Assembly (NCBI RefSeq): GCF_048403405.1
Contig: NZ_CP183129.1
Source: Escherichia coli
GTDB taxonomy: Bacteria > Pseudomonadota > Gammaproteobacteria > Enterobacterales > Enterobacteriaceae
Reading direction: 5' to 3' (one strand)
Length of the DNA: 64,000 nucleotides
Shown here piece by piece: positions 4,826-4,842 of the stretch. How positions within the stretch are numbered: the stretch's first letter is position 1; every line of letters starts with the position of its first letter. Both the position numbers and the translations under genes were made by a program. Under the pieces are notes generated by a model. The model was not told the origin of the DNA. It worked only from the letters and a program-made list of their open reading frames with translations, and ran no database searches.

Positions 4826-4842
4826 GGTTTATTTAATGTTTA
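4826..4842 (+). promoter_or_regulatory. PhoP box (direct repeat GGTTTA-N5-TGTTTA) upstream of phoP
   Basis: Sequence GGTTTATTTAATGTTTA about 60 bp upstream of the phoP start matches the (T/G)GTTTA-N5-(T/G)GTTTA PhoP-box architecture. Confidence 0.5.

What the first reader, a model, noticed from the sequence alone, without database searches (positions are those of the whole stretch)
4826..4842. PhoP box at the phoPQ autoregulated promoter
GGTTTATTTAATGTTTA upstream of phoP fits the PhoP direct-repeat box; expected host regulation, noted for completeness.
Basis: established knowledge. Interest (0 to 1): 0.1.

Follow-up and report, generated by a model that had tools for sequence, protein, structure and literature searches.

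The report
Known PhoP box at phoPQ promoter
The 17-base motif is the well-known binding site through which the E. coli regulator PhoP switches on its own operon (phoPQ) when magnesium is low, so it is ordinary and already described.

Summary
Confirmed and ordinary. GGTTTATTTAATGTTTA lies exactly at 4826-4842 (+), in the 169-bp purB-phoP intergenic region, 61 nt upstream of the phoP ATG (4904). It is the only perfect (T/G)GTTTA-N5-(T/G)GTTTA match in the 64 kb (0.06 expected).

From 4791 to the ATG the sequence matches E. coli K-12 except for one extra A just before the ATG. The published K-12 P1 start (-36) maps to A4867. That puts the -10 hexamer CATAAT at 4855-4860, exactly 12 nt after the box, and the box at -41 to -25, replacing a -35 element. 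This is the "architecture I"/class II layout described for the Salmonella phoP promoter.

The 55-nt box-to-start core is present in 5,423 of 5,426 complete E. coli genomes. Of 110 Enterobacterales phoP loci retrieved by coding sequence only, 78 have a box with at most 2 mismatches within 150 nt of the ATG (about 2% expected). Novelty: already known.

The only surprise is outside the window. In the Citrobacter freundii and Enterobacter cloacae groups, a prophage family integrates into the -10/start core of this promoter. That separates the PhoP box from phoP and leaves the box facing into the prophage.

The parts
4748..4770 (+). purB terminator-like G+C-rich hairpin (followed by CTGCTTATTA); marks the upstream limit of the phoP promoter region
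   Evidence: Terminator scan: 10 pairs, 7 G-C, loop of 3. The equivalent hairpin follows purB in Enterobacter and Klebsiella loci.
4826..4842 (+). PhoP box: direct repeat GGTTTA (4826-4831), TTTAA, TGTTTA (4837-4842), in the direct orientation relative to phoP, at -41 to -25 of P1
   Evidence: identical to K-12; the same 17-mer is listed as the phoP site in PMC5775216. In 69 purB-adjacent orthologous loci the proximal GTTTA is invariant.
4843..4854 (+). 12-nt spacer CCCCCATAACCA between box and -10 hexamer (one helical turn). The position where a -35 hexamer would sit (4832-4837, TTTAAT) matches TTGACA at only 3 of 6.
   Evidence: Read directly. A 12-nt spacing defines architecture I in PMC3335776. 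No sigma-70 consensus promoter was found in 4600-5000. The common E. coli polymorphism C4852A lies here and not in the box.
4855..4860 (+). -10 hexamer CATAAT of promoter P1
   Evidence: Its position follows from the P1 start. A -10-like hexamer exactly 12 nt after the box matches TATAAT at 4 or more of 6 positions in 67 of 70 orthologous loci; CATAAT occurs in 34.
4867..4867 (+). Inferred P1 transcription start (A), homologous to K-12 position -36
   Evidence: PMC3536696 gives a 36-nt leader and a P1 initiation site at -36. Transferred through the K-12 alignment. Inferred, not measured in this strain.
4867..4903 (+). P1 5' leader, 37 nt here against 36 in K-12 because of one extra A in the A-run. 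It contains the Shine-Dalgarno sequence GGGAGA (4890-4895). In K-12 the phoP leader/start region is targeted by the sRNAs MicA and GcvB.
   Evidence: sRNA control from PMC3536696. The exact 63-nt allele occurs in 354 of 5,427 E. coli records.
4904..5575 (+). phoP, response regulator (223 aa); its product binds the box
   Evidence: NF008078 equivalog, E = 9.8e-145.
5575..7035 (+). phoQ, sensor histidine kinase (486 aa), co-transcribed with phoP
   Evidence: NF008077 equivalog, E = 1.9e-288. Its start overlaps the phoP stop by one base.
4842..5186 (-). Region homologous to the K-12 antisense RNA AsphoP (b4843). Its annotated 3' end coincides with the last base of the PhoP box. The AsphoP -10 hexamer is CGTAAT here against CATAAT in K-12, so it may not be expressed in this strain.
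   Evidence: K-12 annotation; PMC9600491; coordinates transferred through.

Best explanation
The motif is the PhoP box of promoter P1 of the phoPQ operon, the cis element of the operon's positive autoregulation. When PhoQ senses low Mg2+ (or antimicrobial peptides) it phosphorylates PhoP. A PhoP-P dimer then binds the two direct-repeat half-sites (4826-4831 and 4837-4842). The box lies one helical turn (12 nt) upstream of the -10 hexamer CATAAT (4855-4860), where a -35 element would normally be. Bound PhoP-P therefore acts as a class II activator that recruits RNA polymerase to a promoter with no usable -35. Transcription starts at about A4867 and produces the phoP-phoQ mRNA with a 37-nt leader. 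A separate constitutive promoter (P2) supplies basal PhoP and PhoQ. Shown here: the sequence, its geometry, its identity to K-12 and its conservation. Taken from the literature: the transcription start, PhoP dependence and binding. Inferred by homology: that all of this holds in this particular strain.
For: The exact 17-mer is at 4826-4842 and is the only perfect match in 64 kb, with 0.06 expected. The flanking genes are purB, phoP and phoQ by curated equivalog models. The sequence from 4791 to the ATG matches K-12 MG1655 except for one extra A. The K-12 P1 start at -36 and its 36-nt leader come from PMC3536696, which puts the box at -41 to -25 and CATAAT 12 nt downstream. No sigma-70 consensus promoter is found in 4600-5000, as expected for an activator-dependent promoter. 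PMC3335776 describes the Salmonella phoP box TGGTTTATTAACTGTTTAT as a single, direct, footprinted box 12 nt from the -10; it is class II-type, and inverting it or moving it abolishes activity. PMC5775216 lists the identical tGGTTTAtttaaTGTTTAc as the phoP site in S. flexneri, reports that PhoP-P shifts the phoPQ promoter fragment, and reports autoregulation. PMC3750022 describes E. coli P1 as PhoP-P responsive and P2 as constitutive, and shows that P1 alone keeps the PhoP-P response. PMC2650801 reports that deleting the box in Salmonella abolishes growth in low Mg2+. For conservation, the 55-nt core is present in 5,423 of 5,426 E. coli genomes, and in six aligned sequences the box is invariant while polymorphisms fall beside it. 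Of 110 Enterobacterales phoP loci retrieved by a coding-sequence pattern, 44 have a perfect box and 78 have a box with at most 2 mismatches within 150 nt of the ATG, against 0.0% and 2% in shuffled controls. In 69 purB-adjacent loci the proximal GTTTA is invariant while the 5-nt spacer varies freely.
Against: Nothing contradicts it. The limits are as follows. PhoP binding and PhoP-dependent transcription were not, and cannot be, measured here. The primary E. coli mapping paper (Kato et al. 1999) is not in the held library, so the P1 position rests on later papers that cite it. The position of P2 relative to the box could not be established, so any additional effect of bound PhoP on P2 remains open. 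This strain has one extra A in the leader, whose effect is unknown.
Confidence: 0.97

Rival explanations
1. The motif is a chance A+T-rich match in an intergenic region and has no regulatory function.
For: Intergenic DNA is A+T-rich, and degenerate matches are common: 17 matches with at most 2 mismatches in the window against 13.4 expected. Six of 100 shuffles of the window gave one perfect match.
Against: The match is perfect and lies at the orthologous position of a mapped promoter. The half-sites are conserved across dozens of genera while the intervening 5 nt vary. Shuffled upstream regions give 0.0% perfect matches against 40% observed. Published binding and reporter data exist for the identical sequence.
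Confidence: 0.01
2. Besides activating P1, PhoP bound at the box also modulates the upstream constitutive promoter P2, by occlusion or roadblock, so the site would have a dual role.
For: P2 lies upstream of P1 (written 'P2P1' in PMC3750022), so its transcripts must pass through the box region. [quoted passage not shown]
Against: No held paper reports PhoP-dependent repression of P2. The position of P2 could not be determined here: the sigma-70 scan found nothing, and Kato 1999 is not held.
Confidence: 0.1
3. The repeat is the target of a different OmpR-family regulator rather than PhoP.
For: OmpR/PhoB-family regulators all recognise direct repeats with about 11-bp periodicity (established knowledge).
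Against: The half-sites match the PhoP consensus exactly. The held literature assigns this very sequence to PhoP.
Confidence: 0.01

Closest known systems
E. coli K-12 phoPQ promoter P1 (Kato, Tanabe & Utsumi 1999, as cited in PMC3536696 and PMC3750022)
   Same: The box, spacer, -10 hexamer, start site and leader sequence are identical, and so is the gene context purB-phoP-phoQ.
   Different: There is one extra A in the A-run between the Shine-Dalgarno sequence and the ATG, so the leader is 37 nt against 36. This is a minority allele, found exactly in 354 of 5,427 E. coli records. There are four substitutions further upstream, at 4735-4790, next to the purB stop and outside the box.
Salmonella enterica phoP promoter ('architecture I', PMC3335776)
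   Same: A single box in the direct orientation, 12 nt upstream of CATAAT and overlapping the -35 position, with a short leader (34 nt). Both half-sites are identical (GGTTTA and TGTTTA).
   Different: The 5-nt spacer inside the box differs (TTAAC against TTTAA), as does the 12-nt spacer to the -10 (TCCCCAAAGCAC against CCCCCATAACCA).
Other architecture I PhoP-activated promoters (mgtA, slyB, yrbL, pmrD)
   Same: The same consensus box, orientation and 11-12 nt distance to the -10 hexamer.
   Different: They control different genes. Only the phoP copy closes a positive feedback loop.
Yersinia pestis y1795-phoPQ promoter (PMC2650801)
   Same: Autoregulation by a PhoP box in front of the operon. 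The Yersinia loci here have TGTTTA-N5-GGTTTA followed by GATAAT at +12.
   Different: The box lies about 360-910 nt upstream of phoP, in most Yersinia loci before an extra gene, and not directly upstream of phoP as in this window.

Membership tests
PhoP box / PhoP-activated class II ('architecture I') promoter | Direct repeat (T/G)GTTTA-N5-(T/G)GTTTA | tested here: met
   Perfect match at 4826-4842, the only one in 64 kb.
PhoP box / PhoP-activated class II ('architecture I') promoter | Direct orientation relative to the regulated gene, about 12 nt (one helical turn) upstream of the -10 hexamer | tested here: met
   The box ends at 4842 and CATAAT is at 4855-4860, leaving a 12-nt spacer. It is on the same strand as phoP. 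The criterion comes from PMC3335776.
PhoP box / PhoP-activated class II ('architecture I') promoter | The box occupies the -35 position and no good -35 hexamer is present | tested here: met
   The box spans -41 to -25 relative to A4867. The sigma-70 consensus scan finds no promoter in 4600-5000. The hexamer 17 nt upstream of the -10 is TTTAAT, matching 3 of 6.
E. coli phoPQ P1 promoter | Orthologous position and sequence identity with the mapped K-12 promoter | tested here: met
   Identical from 4791 to the ATG except for one extra A in the leader. The TSS at -36 comes from PMC3536696.
E. coli phoPQ P1 promoter | Purifying selection on the half-sites across species | tested here: met
   Of 110 loci, 44 have a perfect box and 78 have at most 2 mismatches, against 0% and 2% in shuffles. 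The proximal GTTTA is invariant in 69 of 69 while the inner spacer is variable.
E. coli phoPQ P1 promoter | Binding of phosphorylated PhoP to the site | not testable with these tools
   Literature only: EMSA on the S. flexneri phoPQ promoter fragment that contains the identical 17-mer (PMC5775216), and a DNase I footprint of the Salmonella orthologue (PMC3335776 citing Lejona 2003).
E. coli phoPQ P1 promoter | PhoP- and low-Mg2+-dependent transcription initiating downstream of the box | not testable with these tools
   Literature only: PMC3750022 and PMC3536696, both citing Kato 1999, which is not held.

The most novel reading that the evidence does not exclude
The window's site itself is textbook. 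The most novel reading concerns the same promoter in relatives. The P1 core, from the -10 hexamer to the start site (ATAATCAGCGTTA in Citrobacter and Enterobacter; ATAATC-GCGTTAC at window 4856-4868), is the attachment site of a family of tyrosine-integrase prophages. Integration separates the PhoP box from phoP and leaves an intact PhoP-box promoter facing into the far end of the prophage. Lysogeny might therefore abolish or alter phoPQ autoregulation and place phage cargo genes under PhoP control. On this reading the E. coli sequence is the unoccupied, slightly diverged counterpart. The junction structure is well supported. The regulatory consequences, and whether this has been described before, are not established.
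Probability: 0.35. Interest if true: 0.55.

Novelty: already known. Interest (0 to 1): 0.07.

Why it matters
For the window, it matters only as correct annotation. The site is the cis element of a classic positive feedback loop that shapes the dynamics of the PhoQ/PhoP response to low Mg2+, antimicrobial peptides and acid, and it is intact in this strain. Nothing new follows from it. The side observation may matter more. If prophage integration into the P1 core uncouples phoPQ from its own box in the Citrobacter freundii and Enterobacter cloacae complexes, it would be a natural example of a phage rewiring a host virulence and resistance regulator. That is relevant because PhoPQ governs colistin heteroresistance in Enterobacter, a link I state from my own knowledge and did not test here.

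Tried and rejected
1. The primary papers were requested and are not held: Kato 1999 (PMC94065), Coornaert 2010 (PMC2925231), Zwir 2005 (PMC548500), Minagawa 2003 (PMC161583) and Lejona 2003 (PMC219391). The P1 coordinates therefore come from later papers that cite them.

2. The position of the constitutive promoter P2 could not be fixed. The sigma-70 scan of 4600-5000 found nothing. The PMC3536696 supplements gave only activity tables, and the PMC3750022 text gives no coordinates.

3. The weaker PhoP-box-like matches elsewhere in the window, including the 1-mismatch hit at 41810-41826, were not pursued because their number is at chance level.

4. In one search a purely intergenic query showed 'phoP' as an annotated feature under the match. 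This is an artefact: the query's extra A aligns with the A of the ATG in genomes that have the shorter A-run.

5. I first suspected that the loci lacking a box were paralogues. I rejected this because all 120 encode PhoP at 77-99% identity. The absences are explained by inserted genes or prophages between purB and phoP.

6. A search of sequenced phage genomes for the integrase-junction DNA found only distant integrase relatives (Gifsy-2 and Rac type, 65-77% nucleotide identity) and no attP.

7. A literature search for purB + phoP + prophage + integrase + integration site returned nothing.

Full report
OBSERVATION. The sequence GGTTTATTTAATGTTTA is at window 4826-4842 on the + strand, exactly as reported. 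It consists of GGTTTA (4826-4831), TTTAA and TGTTTA (4837-4842). It is the only exact match to (T/G)GTTTA-N5-(T/G)GTTTA on either strand of the 64-kb window, where dinucleotide shuffles predict 0.06. With up to two mismatches there are 17 matches against 13.4 expected, so the degenerate matches elsewhere are noise.

CONTEXT. The + strand ORFs around it are hflD (2713-3360), purB (3364-4734), phoP (4904-5575) and phoQ (5575-7035). Each hits its curated NCBIfam equivalog model far above the cutoff: PhoP scores 479.8 bits against 336, and PhoQ 957 against 497. The motif lies in the 169-bp purB-phoP spacer, downstream of a purB terminator-like hairpin (4748-4770) and 61 nt upstream of the phoP ATG.

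COMPARISON WITH K-12. MG1655 has the same gene order on the opposite strand. From 4791 to the ATG the window is identical to K-12, except that the A-run before the ATG has one more A. PMC3536696 states that the PhoP-activated proximal promoter P1 gives a 36-nt leader, with initiation at -36, citing Kato et al. 1999. Transferred to the window, the start is A4867 and the leader is 37 nt. The hexamer CATAAT at 4855-4860 is then the -10 element, the spacer 4843-4854 is 12 nt, and the box spans -41 to -25. The place where a -35 hexamer would sit reads TTTAAT (3 of 6), and a sigma-70 consensus scan finds no promoter in 4600-5000. This is what one expects of a promoter that depends on an activator bound at -35.

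LITERATURE.
- PMC3335776 lists the Salmonella phoP box TGGTTTATTAACTGTTTAT as a single, direct, footprinted box 12 nt from the -10 ('architecture I'). It is predicted to be class II, and it loses activity when inverted.
- PMC5775216 lists tGGTTTAtttaaTGTTTAc, the identical 17-mer, as the phoP site of Shigella flexneri. It reports a PhoP-P gel shift of the phoPQ promoter fragment and autoregulation.
- PMC3750022 describes the E. coli operon as driven by a constitutive P2 and a PhoP-P-responsive P1, and shows that P1 alone keeps the PhoP-P response.
- PMC2650801 shows that deleting the box in Salmonella prevents growth in low Mg2+, and that autoregulation is conserved across Enterobacteriaceae.
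- The primary mapping papers are not in the held library.

CONSERVATION WITHIN E. COLI. The 55-nt stretch from 10 nt upstream of the box to 3 nt past the P1 start (4816-4870) is found at 80% coverage or more in 5,423 of 5,426 complete genomes, with identity of 95% or higher in all but one record. In an alignment of the window, K-12 and four variants, the box is invariant. The polymorphisms are a C-run length change just upstream and a C-to-A change in the 12-nt spacer.

CONSERVATION ACROSS GENERA.
- To avoid circularity I retrieved phoP loci with a degenerate pattern from the coding sequence ([15 protein letters not shown]) and not from the box. This gave 120 species loci, all encoding PhoP at 77-99% identity to the window's protein.
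- Of the 110 loci with at least 200 nt upstream, 44 have a perfect box and 78 have at most 2 mismatches within 150 nt of the ATG. Shuffled controls give 0.0% and 2%.
- Among the 78 loci with purB directly upstream, 69 have the box 49-79 nt from the ATG (mode 61).
- In these 69 the promoter-proximal GTTTA is invariant, the distal half-site is GTT(T/A/G)A, and the inner 5 nt vary freely.
- A hexamer matching TATAAT at 4 or more of 6 positions sits exactly 12 nt downstream in 67 of the 70 purB-adjacent loci whose best box has at most 2 mismatches.
- Pantoea and Erwinia use CGTTAA-N5-KGTTTA with TATACT.
- Yersinia has the box hundreds of nt upstream, in most loci before an extra gene, as PMC2650801 described.

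This is a textbook phylogenetic footprint.

MECHANISM. PhoQ phosphorylates PhoP under low Mg2+. A PhoP-P dimer binds the two half-sites. From -41 to -25 it substitutes for the missing -35 element and recruits RNA polymerase to CATAAT. Transcription from about A4867 yields phoPQ mRNA, which closes a positive feedback loop, and P2 provides the basal level. The sequence, geometry and conservation are shown here. The start site, binding and PhoP dependence come from the literature. Their validity in this strain is inferred from sequence identity.

VERDICT. The feature is already known, and interest is low.

SIDE OBSERVATIONS IN THE WINDOW.
- The extra A in the leader is a minority allele. The exact 63-nt stretch (4868-4930) that contains it occurs in 354 of 5,427 records.
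- The K-12 antisense RNA AsphoP (PMC9600491) maps to the - strand from 5186 to 4842. Its annotated 3' end is therefore the last base of the box.
- The AsphoP -10 hexamer is CGTAAT in the window against CATAAT in K-12. This is the kind of A-to-G change that the paper suggests may leave the promoter inactive in other species.

SIDE OBSERVATIONS IN RELATED LOCI.
- E. coli P276M has a 9-bp deletion (ACCCCCATA) that keeps the box sequence but shrinks the spacing to the -10 from 12 nt to 3 nt.
- In 13 of the 110 species loci, similarity to the normal promoter begins at the -10 hexamer (…CATAATCAGCGTTAAACTATTC…). These are the Citrobacter freundii complex, Lelliottia, Enterobacter genomosp. O, E. mori, E. 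cloacae and E. quasihormaechei.
- Upstream of that point there is foreign DNA. In most of them it ends 73 nt before the phoP ATG in an intact or fragmented integrase gene (429 aa where intact; Pfam PF12167 plus PF00589). No PhoP box remains in front of phoP.
- E. cloacae and E. quasihormaechei keep only a 0.8-2.2 kb remnant. Its left edge abuts the purB terminator, so the box and spacer have been replaced.
- A scan of IMG/VR for the integrase-side arm found 45 prophage loci. In 44 the arm is followed by the phoP leader (the one cut short by a locus end still shows the leader).
- In two further copies (L139, L171), the arm and ATAATCAGCGTTA are followed by phage DNA.
- L172 is the predicted opposite junction. 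It reads purB 3' end, terminator, CTGCTTTTCCCC, the PhoP box GGTTTACTTAATGTTTA, a 12-nt spacer, C-ATAATCAGCGTTA, and then the same phage arm.
- The crossover core is therefore at least 13 bp, from the last five bases of the -10 hexamer to about the start site.
- After integration an intact PhoP-box promoter faces into the prophage. The first gene on that strand in L172 encodes a 226-aa protein beginning MCGRF (YedK/SRAP-like by my reading, not HMM-tested). umuDC-like genes lie further in on the opposite strand.
- The E. coli window has ATAATC-GCGTTAC at this place, one base shorter and with one substitution, and E. coli genomes are essentially never interrupted here.
- No sequenced phage record carries this junction, and a literature search found no description.
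- Whether lysogeny changes phoPQ autoregulation or puts phage genes under PhoP control is untested.

Noticed in passing
Related loci L007, L032, L039, L041, L053, L086, L092, L100, L116, L122 (integrase present) and L030, L048, L121 (remnant); IMG/VR loci L126-L172; equivalent window position 4856-4868: A family of prophages with a tyrosine integrase (intact or fragmented; 429 aa where intact, PF12167 plus PF00589) integrates into the -10/start core of the phoP P1 promoter (core at least ATAATCAGCGTTA) in the Citrobacter freundii and Enterobacter cloacae groups and in Lelliottia. The PhoP box is separated from phoP. L172 shows the far junction, where purB, its terminator and an intact PhoP box plus -10 now read into phage DNA. 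E. cloacae and E. quasihormaechei retain a 0.8-2.2 kb remnant with no box at all between purB and phoP. No description was found in the searched literature, and no matching phage genome was found.
   Followed up: partly
L172:454-1134 (+), 2828-4575 (-): Downstream of the relocated PhoP-box promoter, the prophage end carries a gene on the same strand for a 226-aa protein starting MCGRF (YedK/SRAP-like by its N-terminal motif). umuC- and umuD-like genes lie on the opposite strand. These may be cargo genes exposed to PhoP-dependent transcription. The names are my reading of the translations, not HMM-tested.
   Followed up: no
window 4899-4903 (A-run before the phoP ATG at 4904): There is one extra A relative to K-12 between the Shine-Dalgarno sequence (GGGAGA, 4890-4895) and the start codon, so the P1 leader is 37 nt instead of 36. 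The exact 63-nt allele is present in only 354 of 5,427 E. coli records. It lies in the phoP leader/start region that MicA and GcvB target in K-12. Its effect is unknown.
   Followed up: partly
window 4842-5186, - strand; AsphoP -10 hexamer at about 5193-5198: The K-12 antisense RNA AsphoP maps here, and its annotated 3' end coincides with the last base of the PhoP box. The window has CGTAAT where K-12 has CATAAT in the AsphoP -10 hexamer. It also differs from K-12 at three other positions in this 101-nt stretch of phoP. AsphoP may therefore not be made in this strain, which fits the published view that it may be specific to K-12.
   Followed up: partly
L005 (E. coli P276M, NZ_CP044293.1), equivalent to window 4842-4850: A 9-bp deletion (ACCCCCATA, flanked by ACC microhomology) keeps the 17-mer intact but reduces the spacing from the box to the -10 from 12 nt to 3 nt. 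By published spacing rules this should abolish PhoP activation of P1. It could be a natural autoregulation-deficient strain or an assembly error.
   Followed up: no
Loci L031, L067, L098, L099, L101 (307-aa ORF MKRYLDCSAS..., partial 190-aa copies in L031 and L099); L019, L034 (510-aa ORF); L055, L087; L017, L058: In several other genera (Atlantibacter, Tenebrionibacter, Pseudocitrobacter, Klebsiella oxytoca group, Pluralibacter) additional non-phage genes lie between purB and phoP. Some of these loci keep a box about 60 nt from the phoP ATG (L031, L098, L099, L055, L087), and others have none within 3 kb. The purB-phoP spacer appears to be a recurrent site of gene gain.
   Followed up: no
E. 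coli genome searches: Eleven matches to the phoP promoter and leader fall on records labelled as plasmids, and a few genomes hold two copies. One genome (NZ_OY754834.1) has the intergenic region split at about window 4806, upstream of the box. None of this was examined.
   Followed up: no
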